Shown piece by piece: positions 19,125 through 54,908 of a DNA stretch of 64,000 nt. The position numbers and the translations under genes are program-made. The stretch comes from Alphaproteobacteria bacterium. Its GTDB lineage: Bacteria; Pseudomonadota; Alphaproteobacteria; Rhodobacterales; Rhodobacteraceae. Position 1 is the stretch's first letter. The number at the start of each line of letters is the position of its first letter. The notes under the pieces are model-generated. The model did no database searches, was not told the origin of the DNA, and saw only the letters and a list, made by a program, of their open reading frames with translations. Location of the stretch: the NCBI GenBank assembly GCA_030425185.1, contig JAUIAU010000011.1:114-64113 (forward strand), read 5' to 3'.

Positions 19125-20597
19125 CTACAGGAAGGCCGTCTCTTCGAAGCTGCGCAGTTTCCGGGAATGAATGCGTTCCAGCGGCATCTCGCGCAGTGTT
19201 TCCATCGCGCGGATACCGATCAGCAGGTGCCGGGCGACCTGCGTCTTGTAGAACTCGGTGGCCATTCCGGGCAGCTTCAGTTCGCCGTGCAACGGCTTGT
19301 CCGAGACGCACAGCAGCGTGCCGTAGGGCACCCGGAACCGGAATCCGTTGGCCGCGATCGTCGCGCTTTCCATGTCGAGGGCAATCGCCCGGCTCTGGCT
19401 CAGGCGCTGGACGGGGCCGGACTGGTCGCGCAACTCCCAGTTGCGATTGTCGATCGTGGCGACGGTGCCGGTGCGCATGATCTTCTTCAGGTCGTAGCCC
19501 TGAAGCTCGGTCACCGCCTCGACAGCCTCCTCGAGCGCGATCTGGATCTCCGCCAGCGCCGGGATCGGCACCCAGACCGGCAGGTCGTCATCCAGCACGT
19601 GATCCTCGCGAAGGTAGCCATGCGCCAGCACGTAGTCGCCGAGGCTCTGCGAATTCCGCAGGCCGGCGCAGTGCCCCAGCATCAGCCAGGCATGGGGGCG
19701 CAGCACGGCGATGTGGTCGGTCGCCGTCTTGGCGTTCGACGGTCCGACCCCGATGTTGACGAGAGTGATCCCGGCGGAACCCTCGCGCAGCAGGTGATAG
19801 GTCGGCATCTGGGGCAGCTTGGCCGGCGGCGGGATCTCGGCCCGGGGATCGGTGATGATGCCGGTCCCGGGACCGACGAAGCCGGTATAGCCGCTGTCCG
19901 GGGCGGCCAGCGCGGCGCGCGCGAAGGCGATGAACTCGTCGACGTAGAACTGGTAGTTGGTGAACAGGATGTGGTTCTGGAAATGCTCGGCCGCCGTCGC
20001 GGTATAGTGCTGCAGCCGCGCCAGCGAGTAGTCGATGCGCTGCGCGGTAAACGGCGCCAGCGGACCCGAGCCGTCCTCGTGCCGGTAGTCGAACCCGTTG
20101 ACGATCTCGTCATGGGTGGTGGTCAGGTCCGGCACGTCGAAGACATCGCGCAGCGGAAAGTCGAGAACGCCTTCCTGCGGCACCGTCACAGCCGCATCGG
20201 CCGTCATCGCGAAGTGCAGCGGGATCGGCGTGCGGCTCTGCCCGATCTCGACCTCGGTGCCGTGGTTCCGGGTCACGAGGCCGATCTGCTGGGTCAGGTA
20301 GTTCCGGAACAGGTCGGGCCGGGTGACGGTCGTCGAATAGGTGCCGGGCGTCGAGACATGGCCGAAGCTCAGGCGATTGTCGACCGCGGCGAAACTCGTC
20401 GTGGTCAGCCGGATCTCCGGGTAATAGGCCCGGTAGCGCACGTCCGGCCGGGTTCCGCGCGCGATCTCGGCGAAGCTGTCGCGCAGGAAATCCGTGGCCT
20501 CGGAGTAGAGGCGCTGCAACTCGGCCACCGCGGCCGCCGGATCGGAAAAACGTTTAGGTTCGCCAGCAGGGGGCGACTTCATGGCAAGAACGGTCAT
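19125..20597 (-). CDS. amn: AMP nucleosidase
   Basis: ILFTNYQFYVDEF, GVGPSNAKTATDH, GHCAGLR, ALDMESAT, LCVSDKPLHGE motifs. Confidence 0.95.
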   Translation of the reverse strand: MTVLAMKSPPAGEPKRFSDPAAAVAELQRLYSEATDFLRDSFAEIARGTRPDVRYRAYYPEIRLTTTSFAAVDNRLSFGHVSTPGTYSTTVTRPDLFRNYLTQQIGLVTRNHGTEVEIGQSRTPIPLHFAMTADAAVTVPQEGVLDFPLRDVFDVPDLTTTHDEIVNGFDYRHEDGSGPLAPFTAQRIDYSLARLQHYTATAAEHFQNHILFTNYQFYVDEFIAFARAALAAPDSGYTGFVGPGTGIITDPRAEIPPPAKLPQMPTYHLLREGSAGITLVNIGVGPSNAKTATDHIAVLRPHAWLMLGHCAGLRNSQSLGDYVLAHGYLREDHVLDDDLPVWVPIPALAEIQIALEEAVEAVTELQGYDLKKIMRTGTVATIDNRNWELRDQSGPVQRLSQSRAIALDMESATIAANGFRFRVPYGTLLCVSDKPLHGELKLPGMATEFYKTQVARHLLIGIRAMETLREMPLERIHSRKLRSFEETAFL

Positions 20598-20603
20598 GGA
20601 ACC

Positions 20604-22406
20604 TCAGGGTGTCTCGAAAAGATCGGTCAGGGCGAAACGGGTCACGTCCACCAGGCCCAGATCGGAAATGCGAAGCTCGGGGATCACCACGAGCGCGAGC
20701 AGCGAGTGCTGCATGTAGGCGTTGTTCAGCGTGCAGCCACAGGCCCGCATCGCCGCCATCATGGCATCGGCCTTGGCGGCCACCTCGGCGGCGGGACTGT
20801 CGGACATCAGCCCGGCGATCGGCAGTTCGACGAGGGCAATCTCGGCCCCGTCCTTCCAGATCGTGACGCCGCCCCCGACCTCGCCCAGCCGGTTGGCCGC
20901 CGCGGCCATCATCTCGCGGTCGGTGCCCACGACGATCATGTGGTGACTGTCATGCGCCACGGTCGAGGCCATCGCCATCCGGCCCTCGTACCCGAAGCCC
21001 GAGACGAAGCCGTTGACCACGCCACCGGTGCCGCGGTGCCGTTCCACAAGCGCGATCTGCGCGACGCCACCGGTGCCTTCGACGATCCCGTCGGTCACCG
21101 GCAGGTCCGCGGTCAGCGCCTTGGTCGGGGCCTGGTTCTCGACCACGCCGATCACGCGGGCGGTGACCGTGTTGGCCCCCTCCGGTGCGCGGATCTCGAA
21201 GTCGGGTGCCTCCAGCACCTTGCCGAGGTGCACCGTCGCCCGAACGTCCTCGGGCCAGTCGAGATGCGGACAGGGAACCAGTCCGACGCCGTCCCGCGCA
21301 ACGTCGATGCCGCGCGCGATCACCAGCTCGACCGGCAGCGACCGCAGGTCCGACGTCAGGATCATGTCGGCCCGCCGTCCCGGAGCGATCGAGCCAAGCT
21401 CGCGCTCCAGGCCGAAATGCGTTGCAGTGTTCACCGTGGCCATCTGCAGCGCGATCAGCGGATCGCAGCCGCAGTCGATCGCGTGCCGCACGACGCGGTT
21501 CATGTGACCGTCCCGGACCAGCGTGCCGGAATGGCAGTCGTCGGTGCACAGGACCATGTTGCGCGGATCGAGTCCCTTCTCGGTGATCGCGGTGATCTGG
21601 CTCTCCACGTCGTACCAGGCCGAGCCGAGGCGCAGCATCGCGCGCATCCCCTGCCGCACCCGGGCGATGGCGTCCGCCTCGCAGGTGCCCTCATGATCGT
21701 CGGCAGCCCCCCCCGCGACATAGGCATGAAAGGCCGGGCCGAGGTCGGGCGAGGCATAATGTCCGCCGACCGTCTTTCCCGCGCGCTGGGTCGCGGCGAT
21801 CTCGGCCAGCATCTTGGCATCTCCTGCCGCCACGCCGGGGAAGTTCATCATCTCGCCCAGCCCGATGATGCCGGGCCAGGTCATCGCCTCGGCCACGTCC
21901 TCGGGCGTGATCTCCCAGCCGGTGGTCTCCAGTCCCGGGGCGGAGGGCGCGCAGGACGGCATCTGGGTGAAGATGTTGACGGGCTGCAGCAGCGCCTCGT
22001 CATGCATCAGCCGCACACCGCGCAGCCCGAGGACATTGGCGATCTCGTGCGGGTCGGTGAACATCGTCGTGGTGCCGTGCGGCATGACGGCGGCGGCGAA
22101 TTCGGCCGGCGTCAGCATGCCCGACTCGATGTGCATGTGCCCGTCCACGAGACCCGGGATCAGATAGCGCCCGCCGGCGTCGAGCACCTCGGTACCCTCG
22201 CCGATGCAATGCGAGGCATCGGGGCCGACATAGGCGAAGCGGCCGACCTTGACGGCGACGTCCCAGCCATCGAGCACCTCGCGGCTGTGCACGTTGACCA
22301 GCCTGCCGCCCCGGATCACGCGGTCGGCGGGGGAACGCCCGGCGGCCACGGCAATCAGGTCCGCGGCGACATCAGGCCAGCTTGGAAAGGAAATATGGTT
22401 TGACAT
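20604..22406 (-). CDS. ade: Adenine deaminase
   Basis: DGHMHIESGM, DPHEIANV, GEMMNFPGV, DHEGT, CTDD, STVAHDSHH motifs. Confidence 0.95.
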   Translation of the reverse strand: MSNHISFPSWPDVAADLIAVAAGRSPADRVIRGGRLVNVHSREVLDGWDVAVKVGRFAYVGPDASHCIGEGTEVLDAGGRYLIPGLVDGHMHIESGMLTPAEFAAAVMPHGTTTMFTDPHEIANVLGLRGVRLMHDEALLQPVNIFTQMPSCAPSAPGLETTGWEITPEDVAEAMTWPGIIGLGEMMNFPGVAAGDAKMLAEIAATQRAGKTVGGHYASPDLGPAFHAYVAGGAADDHEGTCEADAIARVRQGMRAMLRLGSAWYDVESQITAITEKGLDPRNMVLCTDDCHSGTLVRDGHMNRVVRHAIDCGCDPLIALQMATVNTATHFGLERELGSIAPGRRADMILTSDLRSLPVELVIARGIDVARDGVGLVPCPHLDWPEDVRATVHLGKVLEAPDFEIRAPEGANTVTARVIGVVENQAPTKALTADLPVTDGIVEGTGGVAQIALVERHRGTGGVVNGFVSGFGYEGRMAMASTVAHDSHHMIVVGTDREMMAAAANRLGEVGGGVTIWKDGAEIALVELPIAGLMSDSPAAEVAAKADAMMAAMRACGCTLNNAYMQHSLLALVVIPELRISDLGLVDVTRFALTDLFETP

Positions 22407-22450
22407 AGCCAAGTTTGACACGAGGGTTCGGAAGCTTCAAGCAGGCTCCG

Positions 22451-22468
22451 GTGACAGCGGAGTGACAG
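22451..22468 (-). promoter_or_regulatory. Pho-box-like direct repeat upstream of ade-amn
   Basis: Minus strand CTGTCAC-TCCG-CTGTCAC: two CTGTCAY heptamers with 11-bp periodicity. Confidence 0.45.
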
Positions 22469-22470
22469 GC

Positions 22471-25856: not shown

Positions 25857-27776
25857 ATGTCCGACCGCCCTGCCACCCCCGTTCTGGACCGGGTGAACAC
25901 CCCCGCCGACATGAAGGCGCTCAGCGATGCCGAGCTCGGCCAGCTCGCCCGCGACCTGCGGGCCGAGACGATCAGCGCGGTGTCGGTCACCGGCGGGCAC
26001 CTCGGCGCGGGCCTCGGCGTGGTGGAACTGACCGTCGCGCTGCACGCGGTGTTCGACGCGCCGCGCGACAAGATCATCTGGGACGTGTCCCACCAGTGCT
26101 ACCCGCACAAGATCCTGACCGGGCGCCGCGATCGCATCCGCACCCTGCGCCAGAAGGACGGCCTGTCGGGCTTCACCAAGCGCAGCGAAAGCCCCTATGA
26201 CCCGTTCGGCGCGGCGCATTCCTCGACCTCGATCTCGGCCGCGCTCGGCTTCGCCGTCGCCCGCGACCTCGGCGGCGTCGTGCCGGAAGGGCTGGGCGAC
26301 GCCATCGCGGTGATCGGGGATGGCGCCTTATCCGCCGGGATGGCCTACGAGGCGCTCAACAATGCCGGTCACCTCGGCAAGCGCCTGATCGTCATCCTGA
26401 ACGACAACGAGATGTCGATTGCCCCGCCGGTGGGCGCGATGTCGTCCTACCTGTCGCGGCTCTATGCCGGGGCCCCGTTCCAGGACCTGAAGGCCGCCGC
26501 CAAGAGCGCGGTCAGCTTCCTGCCGCAGCCGTTCCAGGAGGGCGCGAAGCGGGCCAAGGAACTGCTGAAGACGATGACGGTCGGCGGAACGCTGTTCGAG
26601 GAACTGGGCTTTTCCTACGTCGGCCCGATCGACGGCCACGACATGGAGCAGTTGCTCGCGGTCCTGCGCACCGTGAAGGCCCGCGCCGACGGGCCGATCC
26701 TGATCCATGCGATCACCGTCAAGGGCAAGGGCTATGCCGAGCACCGCCCCGACAAGGGCCATGCCACCGGCACGTTCGACGTGGTCACCGGCGAGCAGAA
26801 GAAGACTCCGTCGAACGCCCCGAGCTATACCAAGGTCTTTGCCGAAAGCCTGATCGACGAAGCGGCACGCGACCCCCGCATCGTGGCGATCACCGCCGCC
26901 ATGCCCTCGGGGACCGGCCTCGACCTGTTCGCGAAACGCTTCGCCAGCCGGTGCTTCGATGTGGGGATCGCCGAGCAACATGGCGTGACCTTCGCCGCCG
27001 GTCTGGCTGCGGGCGGACTGCGCCCCTTCGTGGCGATGTACTCGACCTTCCTGCAGCGCGGCTACGACCAGGTCGTTCACGACGTCGCGCTTCAGAACCT
27101 GCCGGTGCGCTTTGCCATCGACCGCGCCGGGCTGGTCGGCTCGGACGGCGCGACCCATGCCGGGTCCTTCGACATCGGCTACATGGCCGCCCTGCCGAAC
27201 ATGGTCGTCATGGCCGCCGCAGACGAGGCCGAACTGAAGCACATGGTCGCCACGGCGGCGGCCCATGACAGCGGCCCCATCGCCTTCCGCTTCCCCCGCG
27301 GCGAAGGCGTCGGCGTCGAGCTGCCCGAGCACGGCACCCCGCTTGAGATCGGCAAGGGCCGGATGGTGCAGGAAGGGTCCGGCGTCGCGATCCTGTCCTT
27401 CGGAACCCGGCTGCAAGAGGTCATGCGGGCCTGCGAGGCGCTGGCCCAGCGCGGGATCACCCCGACCGTCGCAGATGCGCGCTTTGCCAAGCCGCTCGAC
27501 CGCGACCTGGTCCTCGACCTCGCGGCGCGGCACGACGCGCTGCTGACCATCGAGGAAGGCGCGGTCGGCGGGTTCGGCAGCCATGTCGCGCAGCTTCTGG
27601 CCGACGAGGGGGTCTTCGACCGCGGCCTGCGCTTCAGGATGATGACGTTGCCGGATCGCTACATCGATCACGCCAACCCGCGCGACATGTATGACATCGC
27701 GGGCCTGAACGCCGAGGACATCGAGGCCAAGGTGCTCTCCCTCATGGGCGTCGAGGTGCTCGGCAAGCGCGCCTGA
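25857..27776 (+). CDS. dxs: 1-deoxy-D-xylulose-5-phosphate synthase
   Basis: [54 protein letters not shown]. Confidence 0.97.
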
Positions 27777-27846
27777 GCCCGGCTCGCTAAAATCCGTCCT
27801 ATGCGCCGCAATCCTGCCGCTTGGACGTCCCCTGCCCAGCGCGGCC

Positions 27847-30297
27847 TTGGCCGATCCTGAGCCCCTCGCAGGGGTGTGGGAAGGGGATACGGCCGTGGGT
27901 GGTCTCATCAATGCTGGCGCCGTGTTCGGCGACGTGGTCGACTCCGGTCTGCCGCTCCGCGACCTCGGCGCGGCGCTGTCCGAGTCGAAGGTGCTCGCCG
28001 CCAGCGCCGATGGCAGCGGCTACGTCGTGGTCACTCTGGCCGAGGGCGGGACGCCCTCGGTGGCCGCGCTCGACACAGTGCCGCTGTCCGGTCTGCCGTC
28101 CGGTGTTCCCTCCCGGGTCACGATCGCGGGGACCGAGCATGTCGTCATCCCCGGCGCACCGGGCACTGGCTATCTGCTGTTGTCCCTGAGTGGCGACGAC
28201 GATCTGCGCATCGACTCCGGGGCCGCGCGGGCGGGGCAGAGTGCCGCGGTGGTCTCCAGTGGCGGCACATCGTTCGTCTATCTCGCGAGCGGGGACAGCG
28301 CAGGCCTGCGCCTGTTCCGGCTCGACGCCGGACAATCTGCGACCGAGATCCCGCTGGCCGGGATCGCGGCCGGCGCAACCCTGCCGCCCGGGGCCGTGCT
28401 GCTGCGGGCGGGACCGTCCGCTTCCCCCAGCCTGATCGCCGTCGATGCAGGGGCGGACACGATCCACAGCTTCCACCTCGGCCCTGACGGCATCCCGGAA
28501 CTGGCCAGCCGGATCGGCGCGGCGGACGGCCTCGGGATCAACGCCCCGCGGGCCGCGACGGCGGTCGAGGTTGCCGGAACCGCCTATCTAGTCGTCGCCT
28601 CGACCGAGAGCCACGCGCTCAGCGTGATCTCTGTCGCGGCAGACGGCCGGCTGAGCGCCACCGACCATGTGCTGTCCCAGACCGGGATCGATCTCGCCGA
28701 TGTGGGGGCGGTGACCTCCACCCTCGTGAACAGGCGCGCCGTGATCGCCGCGGCGGGGTCCGGCGGTGCGGTCTCGCTGTTCGAACTGGTGCCCGACGGC
28801 ACGCTCGTGCACCTGGCCACGCGGGCCCCCTCCCCCGACTGGCCCGCCGGCCATGTGAGCGACCTGGCGCTCAGCGTCGTCGGCAGCGAAGTGCAGCTTC
28901 TGGCCAGCTGCCCGGACCAGTCCGACAGCTACCTGCTGCGCATCCCGCTAGACACTATCGCGGCCCCGGTGACCGGGGGTGCCGGGTCAGACACCCTGAC
29001 CGGAGGGCCTGCACGCGACCTGCTCAGCGGCGGCGCCGGGAATGACACGCTGGCCGGTGGCTGGAACGACGATATCCTGATGGACGGCACAGGCAGCGAC
29101 ACGATGACCGGCGGGCTCGGGGCCGATCTGTTCGTGCTCGCCCGCGACGGGCAGAGCGACACCATCCTCGACTTCCAGCCGGGCATCGATCGGCTCGACC
29201 TGTCGCGGTGGTGGATGCTGTCGAACGCGACCCAGCTCACGATTACCCCGACGGCAGAAGGGGCCGACCTGACCTTCGGCGACGAAACGGTGCACGTCAT
29301 CAGCTACGGGCATGTCCCGCTCGGGGCGGCGGACTTTCCGACCGGCACGATCCTGAACCTGACCCGCCCGCCCCTGATGGTCGACCAGCCGGATGCCGCC
29401 CCGGCGGACTTTTCCGCGCGCGACGTCCTGATCGGCACGGCGGGACCCGACGTCCTGCGCGGCTACGGCGGGAACGACCGGCTCGAGGGTGGCGGCGGCA
29501 GCGACGAGCTGCGCGGCGGCGATAACGACGACGAGCTGATCGGCGGGGACGGCGACGACTTCGTGTTCGGGGACGGCGGCCAGGACAACATCGCGCTCGG
29601 CAACGGCGACGACGAGGGGCACGGCGGCGACGGGCACGACCAACTCGGCGGCGGCGCAGGGCGCGACATGCTGTTCGGCGATGACGGCAACGACACGCTC
29701 GGCGGCGGCCCGGATGACGACTGGATCGACGGCGGGCGTGGCAACGACGTGGCCAGCGGCGGCTACGGCGACGACATCGTGCGCGGTGGTGACGGGGACG
29801 ATACGCTGGCGGGCAGCTTTGGTGCCGATATCGTCGAGGGCGGCGCGGGCAACGACTCGCTCGGCGGCGGGGTCGGCATCGACATCCTGCGCGGCGGCGA
29901 CGGCAATGACGACGCGGGCGGCGGCGACGGCGACGACTGGCTTTACGGCGACGACGGAAACGACTTCCTCGCCGGGGGCAACGGGGACGACCGGCTGTTT
30001 GGTGGCGCGGGTGACGACAAACTGAACGGGGGTGCCGGAAACGACGTCCTGACCGGCGACGCGGGGGCCGACCAGTTCATCATCCCGGACTGGACGGCAG
30101 GCGAGACGGACCTGCTCGTCGATTTCACGAAAGGCGAGGACACCATCCGGGTCCCCTGGATCAGCGGGGCCTTCAACGCGCTCACGATCACCGATCCCGG
30201 CGACGGACAGCTGGCGATTACCCATGGCGGCCACACGATCCTGGTCGACGGCCTCGATGGCGACTGGCTCGACATCCACGACTTCCTCTTCGTCTGA
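27847..30297 (+). CDS. Large RTX (GGxGxD Ca-binding) protein with N-terminal beta-propeller-like region; start uncertain (TTG)
   Basis: Two blocks of nonapeptide repeats (about 28960-29130 and 29430-30080) with DTILDF/DLLVDF-type spacers; C-terminus typical of T1SS cargo; no Sec signal. Confidence 0.85.
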   Translation: MADPEPLAGVWEGDTAVGGLINAGAVFGDVVDSGLPLRDLGAALSESKVLAASADGSGYVVVTLAEGGTPSVAALDTVPLSGLPSGVPSRVTIAGTEHVVIPGAPGTGYLLLSLSGDDDLRIDSGAARAGQSAAVVSSGGTSFVYLASGDSAGLRLFRLDAGQSATEIPLAGIAAGATLPPGAVLLRAGPSASPSLIAVDAGADTIHSFHLGPDGIPELASRIGAADGLGINAPRAATAVEVAGTAYLVVASTESHALSVISVAADGRLSATDHVLSQTGIDLADVGAVTSTLVNRRAVIAAAGSGGAVSLFELVPDGTLVHLATRAPSPDWPAGHVSDLALSVVGSEVQLLASCPDQSDSYLLRIPLDTIAAPVTGGAGSDTLTGGPARDLLSGGAGNDTLAGGWNDDILMDGTGSDTMTGGLGADLFVLARDGQSDTILDFQPGIDRLDLSRWWMLSNATQLTITPTAEGADLTFGDETVHVISYGHVPLGAADFPTGTILNLTRPPLMVDQPDAAPADFSARDVLIGTAGPDVLRGYGGNDRLEGGGGSDELRGGDNDDELIGGDGDDFVFGDGGQDNIALGNGDDEGHGGDGHDQLGGGAGRDMLFGDDGNDTLGGGPDDDWIDGGRGNDVASGGYGDDIVRGGDGDDTLAGSFGADIVEGGAGNDSLGGGVGIDILRGGDGNDDAGGGDGDDWLYGDDGNDFLAGGNGDDRLFGGAGDDKLNGGAGNDVLTGDAGADQFIIPDWTAGETDLLVDFTKGEDTIRVPWISGAFNALTITDPGDGQLAITHGGHTILVDGLDGDWLDIHDFLFV

Positions 30298-38323: not shown

Positions 38324-39028
38324 TCAGTCGACCGCCAGCATGTAGCCCGCGCCGCGCACGGTCTGCAGGTAGCGAGGCTGCTTCGGATCGGTTTCGATCT
38401 TCCGGCGCAGGCGGGCGATCTGCACATCGACGGCGCGCTCCTGGCTCGGGTCGCCGTCCCGGTTCAGCGTCTCGACAAGCTGCGACCTGCTTAGCGCTGC
38501 GCCCGGCGACGCCGCGAAGATCCGCATCAGCGCCGTCTCGGTGGCGGTCAGGCGGATCTGCTCGCCGTCCCGCCACAGCTCGCCCTTCTCGATATCGTAG
38601 CGCACGGCGCCCAGCGTCAGTACCTTCGGGCCCAGCGCAACAGGCTCTTCGCGCGGCACGCGCCGGAGGATCGCGTTGATCCGCAGCAGCAGTTCTTTCG
38701 GCTCGAACGGCTTGCCGAGGTAATCGTCCGCCCCGGCCTCGAGACCGGCGATCCGGTCGGCGGTATCGCTGCGTGCGGTCAGCAGCAGGATCGGCGTCGT
38801 GATCTCCTGCCGGAGGCTCCGCGTCAGCGAGACACCGTCTTCCCCCGGCATCATCACGTCGAGCACGATCAGGTCGAACTCGAGACCGGCCAGCAGCCGC
38901 CGCGCCTGCGCCGCATCGCGGGCGACCGTCGCGAGGAACCCGTGCCGCATCAGGAACTTCTGCAACAGGCCCCGGATCCGCTCGTCATCGTCGACAAGCA
39001 GCAGGTGCGCCGCCGGTTCGTCGATCAC
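38324..39028 (-). CDS. petR: OmpR-family response regulator PetR
   Basis: LVDDD, LDVMMPGEDG, DDYLGKPF, VDVQIARLRRKIE, TVRGAGY. GTG start overlaps the petP stop. Confidence 0.88.
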   Translation of the reverse strand: MIDEPAAHLLLVDDDERIRGLLQKFLMRHGFLATVARDAAQARRLLAGLEFDLIVLDVMMPGEDGVSLTRSLRQEITTPILLLTARSDTADRIAGLEAGADDYLGKPFEPKELLLRINAILRRVPREEPVALGPKVLTLGAVRYDIEKGELWRDGEQIRLTATETALMRIFAASPGAALSRSQLVETLNRDGDPSQERAVDVQIARLRRKIETDPKQPRYLQTVRGAGYMLAVD

Positions 39029-39537
39029 GACGGGCCCCCGTCGCTGAGCGCGTTGAACTGGCGGCGGCATTCCGGGTCCATCATCTGTTCGAGCACGGTG
39101 CGGAACCCTGCCACGGCCTCGGGCCCGGCGGCCCGGAACGCCGCCCGCATCCGGCCCCGTTGCGCCTCGGACAGCGCGCGCTCCAGCGTCTCGCCGGCCT
39201 CGGTCAGGCGCAGGTGCCGCTCGCGCTTGTCCTTGTTGCCGACCTTCGCTTCCACCAGCCCGTCCTCGACCAGGGTCCGAAGCACGCGGTTCAGCGACTG
39301 CTTGGTGACACCGAGAATGGTCAGCAAATTGTTCACCGTCGTGCCCGGGGCACGGTTGATGAAATGCAACGCCCTGTGATGGGCGCGCCCGTAGCCCTTC
39401 TCGGCCAGGATGCGGTCCGGATCGGCGGTGAACCCGCGATAGGCGAAGAACATCGCCTCGATCCCCTTGCGCAACTGATCGTCGGTCAGAAACAGAAGGC
39501 TCTCGCCCCGCGTCACGACCTGCGCCGTCTCTGCCAT
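39025..39537 (-). CDS. petP: MarR-family transcriptional regulator PetP
   Basis: LFLTDDQLRKGIEAMFFAYRGF, GRAHHRA, TKQSLNRVL winged helix; divergent from ilvE. Confidence 0.88.
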   Translation of the reverse strand: MAETAQVVTRGESLLFLTDDQLRKGIEAMFFAYRGFTADPDRILAEKGYGRAHHRALHFINRAPGTTVNNLLTILGVTKQSLNRVLRTLVEDGLVEAKVGNKDKRERHLRLTEAGETLERALSEAQRGRMRAAFRAAGPEAVAGFRTVLEQMMDPECRRQFNALSDGGPS

Positions 39538-39577: not shown

Positions 39578-39600
39578 TTTATGTCAGCCTTGTTGACTTT
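39578..39600. promoter_or_regulatory. Palindromic operator GTCAG-N5-TTGAC between petP and ilvE
   Basis: TTTATGTCAGCCTTGTTGACTTT. The right half doubles as a -35 (TTGACT), with TATCGA 17 bp downstream toward ilvE. The same motif recurs at 52342, 53946 and 54020. Confidence 0.6.
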
Positions 39601-52340: not shown

Positions 52341-52357
52341 GGTCAGCGGGGCTGACC
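52341..52357. promoter_or_regulatory. Palindromic operator GGTCAG-N5-CTGACC upstream of gltB
   Basis: GGTCAGCGGGGCTGACC, perfect 6-bp arms, ~63 bp upstream of the gltB ATG. Confidence 0.5.
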
Positions 52358-52457: not shown

Positions 52458-53891
52458 TTATTCTGCGGCCACGACCGCGTTTTTCTGCAGCGCAGCGAGG
52501 ATGGCCTCGGCCGCCTCGCGCCCGTCGCGGATCGCCCAGACCACAAGGCTCGCGCCGCGCACGATATCCCCGGCCGCGTAGACCCCCGGCAGGTTCGTCT
52601 CGTGGGTGCGGAAATTGGCCTTGATGGTGCCCCAGCGGGTCACTTCCAGCTCGGGCACGCCCCAGAGGCTCGGCAGCGGCTCGGGCTCGAAGCCCAGCGC
52701 CTTGATCACCAGGTCGGCGGGCTCGACGTAGTCGGCACCGGGGATTTCCTCCGGCATCTGCCGCCCGGTCGCGTCCGGTTCGCCCAGCTTCATGCGCTGG
52801 ACATGGACGCCGTCGACCGGATCGCCCGAAAAGCCCTTTGGCGCCGAAAGCCAGACGAATTCCACGCCCTCTTCCTCGGCGTTCTGCACCTCGCGCTGGC
52901 TGCCCGGCATGTTGGCCCGGTCCCGGCGATACAGGCATTTGACGCTGGTCGCGCCCTGCCGGATCGCGGTGCGCACGCAGTCCATCGCGGTGTCGCCGCC
53001 GCCGATGACGACGACGCGCTTGCCCTCGGCGTTCAGTTCCCCGGAGGTGAATTCCGGCACATCGTCGCCGAAGCCGACCCGGTTCGAGGCGGTCAGGTAG
53101 TCGATCGCCCGCACGATGCCGGCCGCCCCCGCGCCCGGCCCGCCGAGGTCGCGCGACTTGTAGACCCCGGTCGCGATGACCACGAAGTCATGCTTGGCGC
53201 GCAGGTCGGCGAACGAGATATCCTCGCCCACGCTGCAGTTCAGCTGCATCGCGACGCCGCCCGCTTCCAGCTGCGCCATGCGGGCCATCACCACGTCCTT
53301 CTCCAGCTTGAAGCCGGGGATGCCGTAGGTCAGCAGGCCGCCGCCACGGTCATAGCGGTCGTAGACGGTGACCTGCAGACCGGCGCGGCGCAGCATGTCG
53401 GCCGCCGCCAGCCCGCCCGGACCGGCGCCGATGATGCCGACGCTCTCGGGCCGCTCGACCGACGGGGTGATCGGCTTGACCCAGCCCTCCTCCCAGGCGG
53501 TGTCGGTGATGTATTTCTCGACCGAGCCGATGGTGACCGTGCCGTGGCCAGACTGCTCGATCACGCAGTTGCCCTCGCACAGCCGGTCCTGCGGGCAGAT
53601 GCGGCCGCAGATCTCGGGGAAGGTGTTGGTGGCCTGGCTGATCTCGTAGGCTTCCTGCAGCCGCCCCTCGGCGGTCAGCTTCAGCCAGTCCGGGATGTTG
53701 TTGTGCAGCGGGCAGTGCGACTGGCAGTAGGGCACGCCACACTGGCTGCACCGCCCGGCCTGCTCGGCCGCCTTCTCGCGGGCATACTCCGCGTAGATTT
53801 CCTGGAAGTCCTTTGAGCGCGCCTCGGCCGCCCGCTTCTCGGGCATCTCCTTGGCCACCGTCACGAACCTGAGCATCTTCTGCGTCGCCAT
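52458..53891 (-). CDS. gltD: Glutamate synthase small subunit
   Basis: CSQCGVPYCQSHCP, GRICPQDRLCEGNC, IGAGPGG, IGGGDTAMDC, AGDIVRGASLVV. Confidence 0.97.
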   Translation of the reverse strand: MATQKMLRFVTVAKEMPEKRAAEARSKDFQEIYAEYAREKAAEQAGRCSQCGVPYCQSHCPLHNNIPDWLKLTAEGRLQEAYEISQATNTFPEICGRICPQDRLCEGNCVIEQSGHGTVTIGSVEKYITDTAWEEGWVKPITPSVERPESVGIIGAGPGGLAAADMLRRAGLQVTVYDRYDRGGGLLTYGIPGFKLEKDVVMARMAQLEAGGVAMQLNCSVGEDISFADLRAKHDFVVIATGVYKSRDLGGPGAGAAGIVRAIDYLTASNRVGFGDDVPEFTSGELNAEGKRVVVIGGGDTAMDCVRTAIRQGATSVKCLYRRDRANMPGSQREVQNAEEEGVEFVWLSAPKGFSGDPVDGVHVQRMKLGEPDATGRQMPEEIPGADYVEPADLVIKALGFEPEPLPSLWGVPELEVTRWGTIKANFRTHETNLPGVYAAGDIVRGASLVVWAIRDGREAAEAILAALQKNAVVAAE

Positions 53892-53940
53892 AGCCGCTCC
53901 CAATTTCTGTCGCGTCCATTTACAGTCAGACCAGGTCAAA

Positions 53941-54039
53941 GAAAAGTCAGGCACACTGACCTAAATCAAGTATTCCTCGCGCTCCACCGACCGGCCGCCG
54001 CCGAAATTGTGGATTTTATGTCAATCATACTGACCTTAT
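53941..54039. promoter_or_regulatory. Two GTCA(G/A)-N5-CTGAC palindromes in the gltD/uppP divergent region
   Basis: AAAAGTCAGGCACACTGACCTAAA (core 53946-53960) and TTTTATGTCAATCATACTGACCTT (core 54020-54034). The latter contains TTGACA on the gltD strand. Confidence 0.6.
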
Positions 54040-54104
54040 TGGCGCATTTCCTTTTCACGACGCGGCATTAGGGTCGGCTCAGCGAATCATCAGGCCCCCT
54101 CAGA

Positions 54105-54908
54105 ATGACCCTCTTCCATCTCCTCATGCTGGCCGTGATCCAGGGGATCACGGAATTCCTGCCCATCTCCTCGTCCGGGCACCTTATCCTCTACCCGCTG
54201 CTCACCGGCGCTCCCGACCAGGGGCTCGCCATAGACGTGGCCGTGCATGTCGGCACCCTGGGGGCAGTGATCTTCTACTTCTGGTCCGACGTGTCCCGGG
54301 CCCTGGCCGGACTGCCGAAGCTGTTGCGCTGGCAGATCGACGACCAGGGCGCATGGCTGGCGCTGTGCCTCGTCGTGGCAACGATCCCGGTGGTCTTGGC
54401 CGGTCTCCTTCTCAAGCTGAGCGGGCTCGACGTCATGATGCGTTCGGTCGCGGTGATCGGCTGGACCATGCTGATCTTCGGCATCGTGCTTTGGTGGGCA
54501 GACCAGCAGTTCGACCATGTGCGGACCGCCGAGCAGTGGACGCTGAAGCACGCGATCATCCTCGGCCTCTGGCAGGTCATCGCGCTGATTCCGGGCACCT
54601 CGCGCTCGGGCATCACGATCACCGGCGCGCGGGTTCTGGGTTACAAGCGCGAGGACGCGGCGCGGCTGTCGATGCTGATGTCGATCCCGACCATTCTCGC
54701 GTCCGGGGTCCTGCTCGGGGCCGATGTCGTCGGACAGGCCGATGTCGCGATGCTGCGCGATGGCGTGATCGGGGCGGCCTTCGCCTTTGTCGCGGCCTAT
54801 GTCGCGCTGTCGCTGATGATGCGGTTCCTCAAGGTCTACAGCTACACGCCCTACGTGATCTACCGCGTAATCCTCGGCGCCGTGCTGCTGGTCATCGCCT
54901 ATACCTGA
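54105..54908 (+). CDS. uppP: Undecaprenyl-diphosphate phosphatase
   Basis: QGITEFLPISSSGH, HVGTLGAV, PGTSRSGITI motifs. Confidence 0.96.
   Translation: MTLFHLLMLAVIQGITEFLPISSSGHLILYPLLTGAPDQGLAIDVAVHVGTLGAVIFYFWSDVSRALAGLPKLLRWQIDDQGAWLALCLVVATIPVVLAGLLLKLSGLDVMMRSVAVIGWTMLIFGIVLWWADQQFDHVRTAEQWTLKHAIILGLWQVIALIPGTSRSGITITGARVLGYKREDAARLSMLMSIPTILASGVLLGADVVGQADVAMLRDGVIGAAFAFVAAYVALSLMMRFLKVYSYTPYVIYRVILGAVLLVIAYT

What the first reader, a model, noticed from the sequence alone, without database searches (positions are those of the whole stretch)
53941..54039. Tandem operators in the gltD/uppP divergent promoter
Seen: two copies of the palindrome 74 bp apart (about 7 helical turns). The distal one contains a perfect TTGACA on the gltD strand. 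A further GTCAG-N5-GTCAA direct arrangement sits at 53925-53939. Inference: cooperative or looping control of glutamate synthase, possibly extending to undecaprenyl-PP recycling (uppP).
Basis: partly seen in the sequence, partly recalled or inferred. Interest (0 to 1): 0.62.

Follow-up and report, generated by a model that had tools for sequence, protein, structure and literature searches.

The report
Paired operators upstream of glutamate synthase
Two short DNA palindromes in front of the glutamate synthase gene gltD are conserved across the Rhodobacterales at a fixed distance of 74 bases. They are most likely a two-site docking platform for one little-studied regulator (probably the MarR-type protein PetP) that controls nitrogen assimilation, and not the neighbouring cell-wall gene uppP.

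Summary
Site A (53943-53963, centre 53953) and site B (54017-54037, centre 54027) lie 74 bp apart in the 213-bp gltD/uppP spacer. Across about 90 Rhodobacterales genomes site A is almost invariant. A second palindrome is centred 73-76 bp from it (exactly 74.0 in most), although the spacer sequence is only about 30% identical.

Site A shows no compensatory changes, so it is a protein site and not a hairpin. A conserved -10-like TA lies 31-32 bp downstream, which puts site A near -43 of the gltD promoter (inferred; no usable -35).

In 20 genomes the neighbouring uppP-type gene lies on the same strand as gltD and ends next to site B, yet the pair keeps its 74-bp spacing. The pair therefore serves gltD, not a divergent uppP promoter.

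A matrix built only from gltD sites also finds the conserved petP/ilvE operator and a site in the promoter of a 2-oxoacid:ferredoxin oxidoreductase gene. The petP/ilvE palindrome is absent where petP is absent. PetP is the best candidate binder, but binding is untested.

Verdict: a new, unusually geometry-locked member of a known kind.

The parts
52458..53891 (-). gltD (glutamate synthase small subunit), first gene of gltD-gltB
   Evidence: Pfam Fer4_20 4.9e-40 and Pyr_redox_2 1.4e-29. High GC3 ORF.
53917..53922 (-). Inferred -10 element of the gltD promoter (gltD sense TAAATG). The TA at 53921-53922 is the conserved part.
   Evidence: TA at offsets -32/-31 from the site A centre is the only strongly conserved column pair outside the two sites in 74 genomes. 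No TSS data were available, so this is an inference.
53925..53939 (+).
   Evidence: Present in the window. Lost in the 94%-identical G004 and not conserved in other relatives. Judged to be chance.
53943..53963 (.). Site A (O_A): AAAGTCAGGCACACTGACCTA, centre 53953, 62 bp from the gltD ATG, about -43 of the inferred promoter
   Evidence: Consensus (G/T)AAAAGTCAG-N5-CTGACCTAT in 74 + 20 Rhodobacterales genomes. Mean pairwise identity is 0.76 against 0.30 for the spacer. There are no compensatory changes.
53964..54016 (.). Spacer between the sites. The sequence is free and the length is fixed.
   Evidence: Pairwise identity 0.30. No indels in most genomes.
54017..54037 (.). Site B (O_B): TATGTCAATCATACTGACCTT, centre 54027, 74 bp from the site A centre, 78 bp from the uppP ATG
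   Evidence: A palindrome TAGGT-N9..11-ACCTA is centred at +73 to +76 in 58 of 60 scorable genomes. It is retained when uppP is not divergent.
54105..54908 (+). uppP/bacA (undecaprenyl-diphosphatase), the divergent neighbour; probably not the reason site B is conserved
   Evidence: PF02673 BacA 2.3e-73. Co-directional BacA paralogue in 20 other genomes.
39578..39600 (.). Related operator in the petP/ilvE divergent spacer (TTTATGTCAGCCTTGTTGACTTTCC core)
   Evidence: Fourth-best genome-wide hit of a matrix trained only on gltD sites. Conserved in all 30 petP loci and in other alphaproteobacterial families.
39025..39537 (-). petP-like MarR-family regulator gene, followed by an OmpR-family response regulator gene (38324-39070)
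   Evidence: PF12802 MarR_2 4.7e-13. Response regulator identified. The name PetP is by analogy with R. capsulatus, from memory.
52342..52356 (.). Third copy, GTCAGCGGGGCTGAC, in the gltD-gltB spacer
   Evidence: An exact GTCA-N7-TGAC occurs in this spacer in 18 of 71 other Rhodobacterales, against about 0.6 expected from the window rate. Its position was not analysed.

Best explanation
The two palindromes are a paired operator for one dimeric winged-helix regulator, most probably the MarR-family protein PetP encoded 14 kb away. The pair acts on the gltD-gltB (glutamate synthase) promoter.

Site A is centred about 43 bp upstream of the inferred transcription start. It covers the place where a -35 element should be, and none is present at a workable spacing. 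Site B lies 74 bp further upstream, at about -117.

The two bound dimers must be held in a fixed mutual geometry, through a short DNA loop or a bent nucleoprotein complex, because evolution has kept the distance while randomising the sequence between them.

Shown here:
- The sites exist.
- They are conserved as sequence, not as a hairpin.
- Their spacing is fixed.
- They belong to gltD rather than to uppP.
- The same motif marks petP's own promoter and the promoter of a 2-oxoacid:ferredoxin oxidoreductase gene.

Inferred:
- PetP is the binder (about 0.6, given that these are operators).
- The position of the transcription start.
- The cooperativity between the sites.
- The sign of regulation. 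I favour activation at gltD, of class-II type, at about 55:45 over repression. The reasons are that the distance from site A to the -10 is invariant and a -35 is missing. At ilvE and at the oxidoreductase gene the same site overlaps good core promoter elements and should repress.

The regulon (gltDB, ilvE, a branched-chain/aromatic 2-oxoacid oxidoreductase) suggests a regulator that balances amino-group flow between glutamate and branched-chain amino acids.

The stated confidence is for the joint claim that these are paired operators acting on gltD and that PetP binds them. It does not cover the sign of regulation.
For: Sequence and statistics in the window.

Conservation:
- The gltD/uppP synteny and both sites are present in genus and family relatives, 74 bp apart in 13 genomes.
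- In 74 genomes, 58 of 60 scorable second sites are centred at 73-76 bp and 36 at exactly 74.0. Spacer identity is 0.30 against 0.76 for site A.

Protein site, not structure: variation at -8/+8, -6/+6, -5/+5 and -3/+3 breaks pairing, with only one double change in 73 distinct sequences, and the A/C asymmetry at -8/+8 is conserved.

Promoter: a conserved TA lies 31-32 bp from the site A centre, and no -35/-10 consensus pair is found.

The pair belongs to gltD: in 20 genomes with a co-directional BacA gene, the distance is 74.0 bp in 14 and 73.5 bp in 2 of 18 scorable cases.

Link to PetP:
- A matrix trained only on gltD sites ranks the ior/lysR site second and the petP/ilvE site fourth in the 3.66-Mb genome.
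- The petP-side palindrome is present in 30 of 30 petP loci and in 4 of 5 more distant petP genomes.
- In some genus members petP carries a second site, TAGGTCAGCA..CTGCC, of the gltD type.
- Four genomes without petP have no such palindrome upstream of ilvE, although the response regulator gene is still adjacent.

PetP is MarR family.
Against: The gltD sites (AGGTCAG-N5-CTGACCT) and the petP site (ATGTCAG-N5-TTGACAT) are similar but not identical, so two related factors remain possible.

Site B is heterogeneous. The distance between the outer TAGGT/ACCTA blocks is 11 bp in 27 genomes, 10 in 12 and 9 in 21. That is awkward for one rigid dimer.

MarR proteins are usually repressors and are rarely class-II activators (from memory).

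The same palindrome forms the arms of a multi-copy composite repeat that often lies between convergent genes. A purely regulatory reading does not explain this.

74 bp is 7.0 turns at 10.5 bp per turn, but only about 6.7 turns at the roughly 11.1 bp per turn reported for loops in vivo in E. coli (from memory). 'Same face' is therefore model-dependent.
Confidence: 0.5

Rival explanations
1. The architecture is as described, but the binder is not PetP. It would be another, unidentified transcription factor. One candidate is the LysR-type regulator encoded divergently from the oxidoreductase gene on contig C8. Another is an Lrp/AsnC-type protein for the GTCCG-WWW-CGGAC variants of site B. PetP would then bind only its own petP/ilvE site.
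For: - The best-matching site outside gltD lies next to a LysR gene, and it is conserved only where that LysR is adjacent.
- The motif contains T-N11-A.
- The site B variants fit the 5-WWW-5 pattern typical of Lrp/AsnC sites (the pattern is recalled from memory).
- The petP-type and gltD-type half-sites differ at one or two positions.
Against: - The LysR orthologue is absent (no hit at E <= 1e-40) from six same-order genomes. The two of these whose gltD/uppP spacer was read still carry a weaker gltD site pair 75-76 bp apart, and all six carry the petP site or a close variant of it.
- The oxidoreductase site sits between -35-like and -10-like hexamers 47 bp from the ATG. That is a repressor position, not the -65 position usual for LysR regulators.
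- In most genomes the type-2 variant is unique to the gltD locus, so it does not define a separate regulon.
- No Lrp gene is linked to any site.
Confidence: 0.25
2. The sites are two independent operators, one for each divergent promoter: site A for gltD and site B for uppP. There would be no interaction between them.
For: Site B lies at a fairly constant 77 +/- 8 bp from the uppP ATG in genomes with the divergent arrangement. A weakly conserved T-rich/TA position lies about 41 bp downstream of site B.
Against: - Independent promoters would not keep an exact 74-bp distance while the spacer sequence drifts to 30% identity.
- In 20 genomes the BacA-family gene is co-directional and ends next to site B, so site B cannot be its promoter element, yet the pair persists at 74 bp.
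Confidence: 0.07
3. The palindromes act as nucleic-acid structures: hairpins in a leader RNA, a weak terminator or attenuator, or REP-like repeats. They would not be protein operators.
For: - Site A is scored as terminator-like on the gltD strand, with a 7-pair stem followed by a T-rich tail.
- The same palindrome forms the arms of a repeated three-palindrome element that is often found between convergent genes.
- Type-1 and type-2 arms differ by an A-T to C-G exchange that preserves pairing.
Against: - At site A, every variable position breaks pairing without compensation, and an A/C mismatch at -8/+8 is conserved in 67 of 73 sequences.
- Genus-level site B keeps a non-pairing right arm, TTACCTA.
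- The stem has only 2-3 G-C pairs.
- A conserved -10 lies downstream of site A.
- There is no Rfam match.
- The sites are conserved in genomes that lack the composite repeat.
Confidence: 0.04

Closest known systems
MarR-family repressors with paired palindromic operators (MarR at marO sites I/II; MexR at two GTTGA-N5-TCAAC repeats)
   Same: The candidate binder is a winged-helix MarR-family protein. The half-site layout is 5-N5-5. There is a site in the regulator's own promoter and there are two sites in a target promoter. The marO and mexR details are recalled from memory.
   Different: In those systems the two sites are adjacent (tens of bp apart) and overlap -35/-10. Here the sites are 74 bp apart at a rigidly conserved distance. 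The proximal one sits at about -43 of a promoter without a -35. The target is central nitrogen assimilation, not efflux or stress.
Auxiliary-operator looping systems (lac O1-O3 at 92 bp, gal OE-OI at 113 bp, HpaR OPR1/OPR2 of the E. coli W hpa cluster)
   Same: Two operators for one protein act on a single promoter, and the spacing matters. HpaR is itself MarR family and was reported to use two operators cooperatively. All of this is recalled from memory and was not tested here.
   Different: No evidence yet that PetP forms tetramers or loops. The 74-bp distance is at the short end of known loops. Site B tolerates a 9-11 bp inner spacing.
Lrp control of gltBD in E. coli
   Same: The target operon is the same (glutamate synthase). 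Multiple phased upstream sites are involved. The link to branched-chain amino acid metabolism is also shared, here through ilvE and a 2-oxoacid oxidoreductase in the same putative regulon. The E. coli facts are from memory.
   Different: The protein family is different (Lrp/AsnC octamers against a MarR dimer). The motif is different (AT-rich 15-mer). The E. coli sites lie at -140 to -260 and need IHF.
TnrA/GlnR boxes (TGTNA-N7-TNACA) at B. subtilis gltAB and other nitrogen genes
   Same: The petP/ilvE operator of relatives (ATGTCAGCCTTGTTGACAT) fits TGTNA-N7-TNACA, and glutamate synthase is a target in both cases. This resemblance is recalled from memory and is only a lead.
   Different: TnrA and GlnR are MerR-family proteins of Firmicutes, and none is implicated here. 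The gltD sites read AGGTCA rather than TGTNA.

Membership tests
MarR-family (PetP) operator | Pseudo-palindromic site of about 15-21 bp with two half-sites about one helical turn apart | tested here: met
   GTCAG-N5-CTGAC with conserved AT-rich flanks at both sites.
MarR-family (PetP) operator | The same motif is present in the regulator's own promoter (autoregulation) | tested here: met
   Present 30-70 bp upstream of petP in 29 of 30 loci and at 179 bp in one. Present in 4 of 5 more distant genomes. A matrix trained only on gltD sites finds it as the fourth-best hit in the genome.
MarR-family (PetP) operator | The motif co-occurs with the regulator gene across genomes | tested here: met
   Four alphaproteobacterial genomes without petP have ilvE next to the response regulator gene but no GTCA-N7-TGAC upstream. 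The sample is small, and all Rhodobacterales examined have petP, so the gltD sites themselves could not be tested this way.
MarR-family (PetP) operator | Direct, ligand-sensitive binding of the protein to the site | not testable with these tools
   Needs EMSA, footprinting or ChIP. No paper on PetP DNA binding was found.
Dual-operator / DNA-looping control | Two sites for the same protein acting on one promoter | tested here: inconclusive
   Both sites match one matrix in the window and the genus. Across the order, site B varies in inner spacing (9-11 bp). The pair goes with gltD irrespective of uppP orientation.
Dual-operator / DNA-looping control | Inter-operator distance is constrained (helical phasing) | tested here: met
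   73-76 bp in 58 of 60 genomes, and 74.0 bp in 14 (73.5 bp in 2 more) of 18 further genomes, with 30% spacer identity.
Dual-operator / DNA-looping control | The protein bridges both sites (oligomerisation, loop) | not testable with these tools
   Needs biochemistry or phasing mutants.
LysR-type regulator binding site (T-N11-A, divergent regulator gene) | The LysR gene is linked to the site and co-occurs with it | tested here: not met
   No LysR gene lies at gltD. The LysR next to the oxidoreductase gene is missing from six same-order genomes. Two of these, the ones whose gltD/uppP spacer was read, keep a weaker gltD site pair, and all six keep the petP site or a close variant of it.
CenR/PetR (OmpR-family) box TGA-N8-TGA | A conserved direct repeat upstream of the regulated gene | tested here: not met
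   The window has TGA-N8-TGA on the gltD strand (53925-53950), and the motif is as published for R. sphaeroides CenR (PMC9275681). The repeat is lost in G004 and absent from other relatives.
Intrinsic terminator / structured RNA or REP hairpin | The stem is maintained by compensatory changes | tested here: not met
   One double change in 73 distinct site A sequences; pairing is broken at four positions. No Rfam family matches.
Class II activator site (about -41.5) | Site centred about 41-43 bp upstream of the TSS of a promoter lacking a -35 | tested here: inconclusive
   A conserved TA 31-32 bp from the centre gives about -43 if TA is -12/-11. No -35 lies at 16-19 bp. The TSS has not been mapped.

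The most novel reading that the evidence does not exclude
The factor that binds this palindrome is more than a gene regulator: it builds a fixed two-dimer nucleoprotein architecture. The same pair of arms recurs at 41 bp, which is three helical turns of about 11 bp less than 74 bp. There the arms flank a parS-like 18-mer (TGTTTCGCGCGCGAAACA) in a multi-copy element that lies mostly outside promoters. PetP, or an unknown partner, would then have a second, architectural or chromosome-organising role. The gltD control region would be one domesticated copy of that module.
Probability: 0.12. Interest if true: 0.7.

Novelty: new member of a known kind. Interest (0 to 1): 0.5.

Why it matters
How glutamate synthase, the main entry point of ammonium-derived nitrogen, is controlled in Rhodobacterales (roseobacters, Paracoccus, Rhodobacter) is poorly known. 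This analysis gives a concrete cis-element that can be tested directly. It consists of two sites, 74 bp apart, present in essentially every genome examined in the order.

It also gives a candidate regulator (PetP) that has been without a function since it was named. The small coherent regulon (gltDB, ilvE, a 2-oxoacid:ferredoxin oxidoreductase) points to a link between glutamate supply and branched-chain amino acid transamination.

The invariant spacing over a freely drifting spacer is an unusually clean natural case of geometry-constrained promoter architecture. It predicts phase-dependent effects that a handful of reporter constructs could confirm.

Tried and rejected
1. TTGACA in site B as the gltD -35: no -10 lies at 16-19 bp, one search found no promoter-like site, and the hexamer is absent outside G000/G004.

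2. GTCAG-N5-GTCAA as a third site or a CenR box: it fits the published TGA-N8-TGA (PMC9275681) but is not conserved, even in the 94%-identical relative.

3. The LysR regulator next to the oxidoreductase gene as the factor: its orthologue is absent from six same-order genomes, while gltD and petP sites are found where those genomes were read.

4. Iron regulon (both glutamate synthase and the oxidoreductase are Fe-S enzymes): the Iron-Rhodo-box/RirA-type motif is TGA-N9-TCA-like, and gltB/gltD are not mentioned in PMC1698941.

5. RNA structure or terminator: no covariation and no Rfam hit.

6. A separate regulon for the type-2 variant of site B: in 6 of 8 genomes the only close match is the gltD site itself.

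7. The 18-mer of the composite repeat as chromosomal parS: three canonical parS sites cluster on another contig.

8. Literature on PetP or MarR control of gltD or ilvE: nothing found.

9. Names for PetP from the protein collection: none. Solved structures: only distant MarR homologues.

An over-permissive genome scan for type-2 palindromes was uninformative in this 69.5% G+C genome.

Full report
**What is in the window.**
The finding lies in the 213-bp spacer between gltD and uppP/bacA.
- gltD is at 52458-53891 on the minus strand (Pfam Fer4_20 and Pyr_redox_2). It is followed on the same strand by gltB.
- uppP/bacA is at 54105-54908 on the plus strand (PF02673).
- The two copies are as described: GTCAGGCACACTGACCT at 53946-53962 and GTCAATCATACTGACCT at 54020-54036, 74 bp apart.

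Read as 21-mers they are:
- Site A: AAAGTCAGGCACACTGACCTA (53943-53963, centre 53953).
- Site B: TATGTCAATCATACTGACCTT (54017-54037, centre 54027).

GTCA-N7-TGAC occurs five times in the 64-kb window against 0.69 expected, and no shuffle out of 100 reaches five. The other three copies are:
- in the petP/ilvE spacer (39583);
- in the gltD-gltB spacer (52342);
- at 28986, G+C-rich and inside the long high-GC3 open frame 27709-30297, so presumably coding.

**Conservation.**
A DNA search of 40 relatives shows that the divergent gltD/uppP arrangement is common in the family. In the intergenic regions, both sites are the only conserved blocks apart from a -10-like TA. The centre-to-centre distance is exactly 74 bp in 13 genomes and 75 bp in two more. 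Two same-order genomes of another family have weaker matches 75-76 bp apart.

A scan of GTDB species genomes with the GltD N-terminus returned 80 named Rhodobacterales loci, including Roseicyclus, Nioella, Roseovarius, Sulfitobacter, Yoonia, Thalassovita and Paracoccus.

In 74 genomes with a strong site A:
- The site A consensus is (G/T)AAAAGTCAG-N5-CTGACCTAT.
- Mean pairwise identity is 0.76 for site A and 0.30 for the 49 bp between the sites.
- Of the 60 genomes in which the second palindrome scores at least 8 of 10 on its outer TAGGT/ACCTA blocks, 58 have it centred 73-76 bp from site A, and 36 at exactly 74.0.

Distances to the two start codons vary more: site A to the gltD ATG is 70 +/- 10 bp, and site B to the uppP ATG is 77 +/- 8 bp.

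Between the window and its 94%-identical relative, 19 of the 213 spacer bases differ and none lies in the 32 arm positions (P = 0.039).

**Protein site or structure?**
Site A is scored as a weak terminator-like hairpin on the gltD strand, so I tested for covariation in 73 distinct site A sequences.
- The arm positions vary without compensation: -6/+6 is paired in 56, -5/+5 in 64 with a single double change, and -3/+3 in 34.
- Position -8/+8 is a conserved A/C mismatch in 67.
- In the genus, the right arm of site B is a conserved non-pairing TTACCTA.
- There is no Rfam match.

The sites are therefore conserved as double-stranded sequence, which fits a protein-binding site.

**Which promoter do they serve?**
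The only other strongly conserved columns are a TA 31-32 bp from the site A centre on the gltD side (about 1.6-1.8 bits in 74 genomes). On the gltD strand these read as TA(T/A)(A/G)NN, a -10 element.
- If TA is -12/-11, site A is centred near -43, the start is near 53910, and the leader is about 19 nt.
- No -35-like hexamer lies at 16-19 bp. That region is the T-rich flank of site A.

A natural experiment settles the role of uppP. In 20 of the 80 loci, no uppP like the window's lies divergent from gltD. Instead a different BacA-family gene (about 30% identical; PF02673, E = 4e-78) lies upstream on the same strand as gltD. Its stop codon is 5-15 bp from site B. Of the 18 scorable cases, the pair is at 74.0 bp in 14 and at 73.5 bp in two.

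Site B therefore cannot owe its conservation to a divergent uppP promoter, and the pair belongs to gltD. Co-regulation of uppP in the divergent genomes is not excluded, but nothing requires it.

**Who binds?**
A position matrix built only from gltD/uppP sites of relatives was used to scan the 3.66-Mb genome. The top hits were:
1. and 3. the two gltD sites;
2. a site on contig C8 between a LysR gene and a 1134-aa indolepyruvate/2-oxoacid:ferredoxin oxidoreductase-type gene;
4. the petP/ilvE site.

The C8 site (TAGGTCA-N7-TGACCTA) lies 47 bp from the oxidoreductase ATG, between -35-like and -10-like hexamers. It is conserved throughout the family, always with the LysR gene adjacent.

The petP/ilvE site (GTCAGCCTTGTTGAC, whose right arm forms a TTGAC(A/T) -35 for ilvE) shows the following pattern:
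- It is present in all 30 petP loci fetched.
- It is present in 4 of 5 petP loci from other alphaproteobacterial families.
- Four genus members add a second site, TAGGTCAGCA...CTGCC, 22-24 bp away, which is of the gltD type.
- In one genome (G009) the gltD site A and the petP site share GTCAGCA(C/T)TGTTGAC.

PetP is a MarR-family protein and is followed by an OmpR-family response regulator gene.

Two comparisons discriminate between the candidates.
- The LysR orthologue is missing from six same-order genomes. The two of these whose gltD/uppP spacer was read keep a weaker site pair 75-76 bp apart, and all six keep the petP site or a close variant of it.
- Four alphaproteobacteria without petP have the response regulator gene directly divergent from ilvE and no such palindrome.

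The motif thus follows petP and not ilvE, petR or the LysR gene. This agrees with the earlier agent's note e1-5198478, which I re-tested only in part.

The published CenR motif (TGA-N8-TGA, PMC9275681) does not describe the palindromes. I found no literature on PetP targets, no source names for the protein and only distant solved MarR homologues.

**Complications.**
Site B is not uniform. The gap between its outer TAGGT and ACCTA blocks varies:
- 11 bp in 27 genomes (as in site A);
- 10 bp in 12 genomes;
- 9 bp in 21 genomes (TTAGGTCCGA-T-TCGGACCTAA).

The centre stays at about +74 in all three. In six of eight genomes tested, the 9-bp form is unique to this locus, so it does not mark a second regulon. 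One rigid dimer would not be expected to accept all three spacings.

The palindrome, in both forms, also makes up the arms of a roughly 60-bp composite repeat: arm, then n4, then TGTTTCGCGCGCGAAACA, then n4, then arm.
- The arm centres are 41 bp apart, or 39 bp for the shorter arm form.
- There are nine copies in this genome. Four lie between convergent genes, where no operator is expected.
- Its copy number is patchy among relatives, and it also occurs in a Marivita genome.
- The 18-mer is not the chromosomal parS, which is present three times on another contig.
- The gltD sites are conserved in genomes that lack the repeat, so they are not copies of it. The shared arms remain unexplained.

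**Mechanism I commit to.**
One dimeric winged-helix regulator, most probably PetP, occupies site A at about -43 and site B at about -117 of the gltD promoter. The two dimers are held in a fixed geometry by looping or by a bent complex, which explains the invariant distance over a drifting spacer.

The sign is uncertain. The invariant distance from site A to the -10 and the missing -35 favour class-II-type activation at gltD. At ilvE (site over a consensus -35) and at the oxidoreductase gene (site between -35 and -10), the same protein should repress.

My estimates are:
- real operators acting on gltD: about 0.85;
- PetP as the binder, given that: about 0.6;
- cooperative or looped pair: about 0.55;
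- activation against repression at gltD: about 55:45;
- uppP regulated through site B: about 0.3.

**Comparison with known systems, and novelty.**
It works like paired-operator control by MarR-type regulators (marO, mexR, and especially the two-operator HpaR case) and like auxiliary-operator loops (lac, gal). In biological role it resembles Lrp control of gltBD in E. coli. These comparisons are from memory.

It is a new member of a known kind:
- an uncharacterised regulator;
- a previously undescribed regulon;
- a strikingly rigid two-site geometry.

Its extension to uppP and its two sequence details (TTGACA and the direct repeat) do not.

Noticed in passing
G000 contigs C1:782, C1:4657, C17:147153, C29:1611, C59:4917, C71:51434, C86:3492, C88:2662, C113:34413 (not in the window): A roughly 60-bp composite repeat: arm palindrome, then n4, then TGTTTCGCGCGCGAAACA, then n4, then arm palindrome. 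The arms have the same consensus as the gltD sites (AGGTCAG-N5-CTGACCT or AGGTCCG-N3-CGGACCT), with centres 41 bp apart (39 bp for the shorter arm form). Four copies lie between convergent genes. Copy number is patchy among relatives: many in G004, G007 and a Marivita MAG, none in G012-G014. The 18-mer looks like parS half-sites with 2 extra central bases, but canonical parS occurs three times on C60. There is no Rfam hit. TTAA-N7-TTAA-like boxes often lie beside it (seen by eye only).
   Followed up: partly
Loci L118, L129, L132, L133, L140, L142, L143, L145-L147, L152, L157, L161, L163, L168, L181-L183, L186, L187: In these Rhodobacterales (including Paracoccus, Rhodobacter, Gemmobacter and Pseudorhodobacter), a second-type BacA/UppP gene (about 30% identical to the window's uppP) lies upstream of gltD on the same strand, preceded by an NAD-dependent epimerase-like gene. 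A BacA-family gene therefore neighbours gltD in either orientation.
   Followed up: partly
window 54083-54089: CGAATCA, which contains the CcrM methylation word GANTC, is conserved 15-22 bp upstream of the uppP ATG in genus and family relatives with the divergent arrangement.
   Followed up: no
window 52342-52356: The GTCAGCGGGGCTGAC palindrome in the gltD-gltB spacer has counterparts elsewhere. An exact GTCA-N7-TGAC occurs between gltD and gltB in 18 of 71 other Rhodobacterales, against about 0.6 expected. That spacer is often long (median about 780 bp including the first gltB codons), which suggests an inserted gene or a separate gltB promoter in many species.
   Followed up: partly
G000 contig C8:20385-20409 (not in the window): The best-matching copy of the motif (TGTAGGTCAGGAATTGTGACCTAAC) lies between a LysR-family gene and a 1134-aa indolepyruvate/2-oxoacid:ferredoxin oxidoreductase-type gene. 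It sits 47 bp from the oxidoreductase ATG, between -35-like and -10-like hexamers. It is conserved across the family.
   Followed up: yes
G002 C1:3456860 and G012 C3:376103 (orthologous to window about 20600-22470): Two genus members carry a good motif copy (TATGTCA-N7-TGAC(C/A)TA). In G002 it lies between the orthologues of the window's 490-aa gene (19125-20597) and the VOC/glyoxalase gene. The G012 copy sits at the same distance from petP but its flanks were not checked. The window has no copy at that place.
   Followed up: partly
window 53925-53950, minus strand: On the gltD strand the sequence reads TGA-N8-TGA-N7-TGA. This matches the published CenR (PetR-type response regulator) direct-repeat motif, but it is specific to this genome.
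   Followed up: yes
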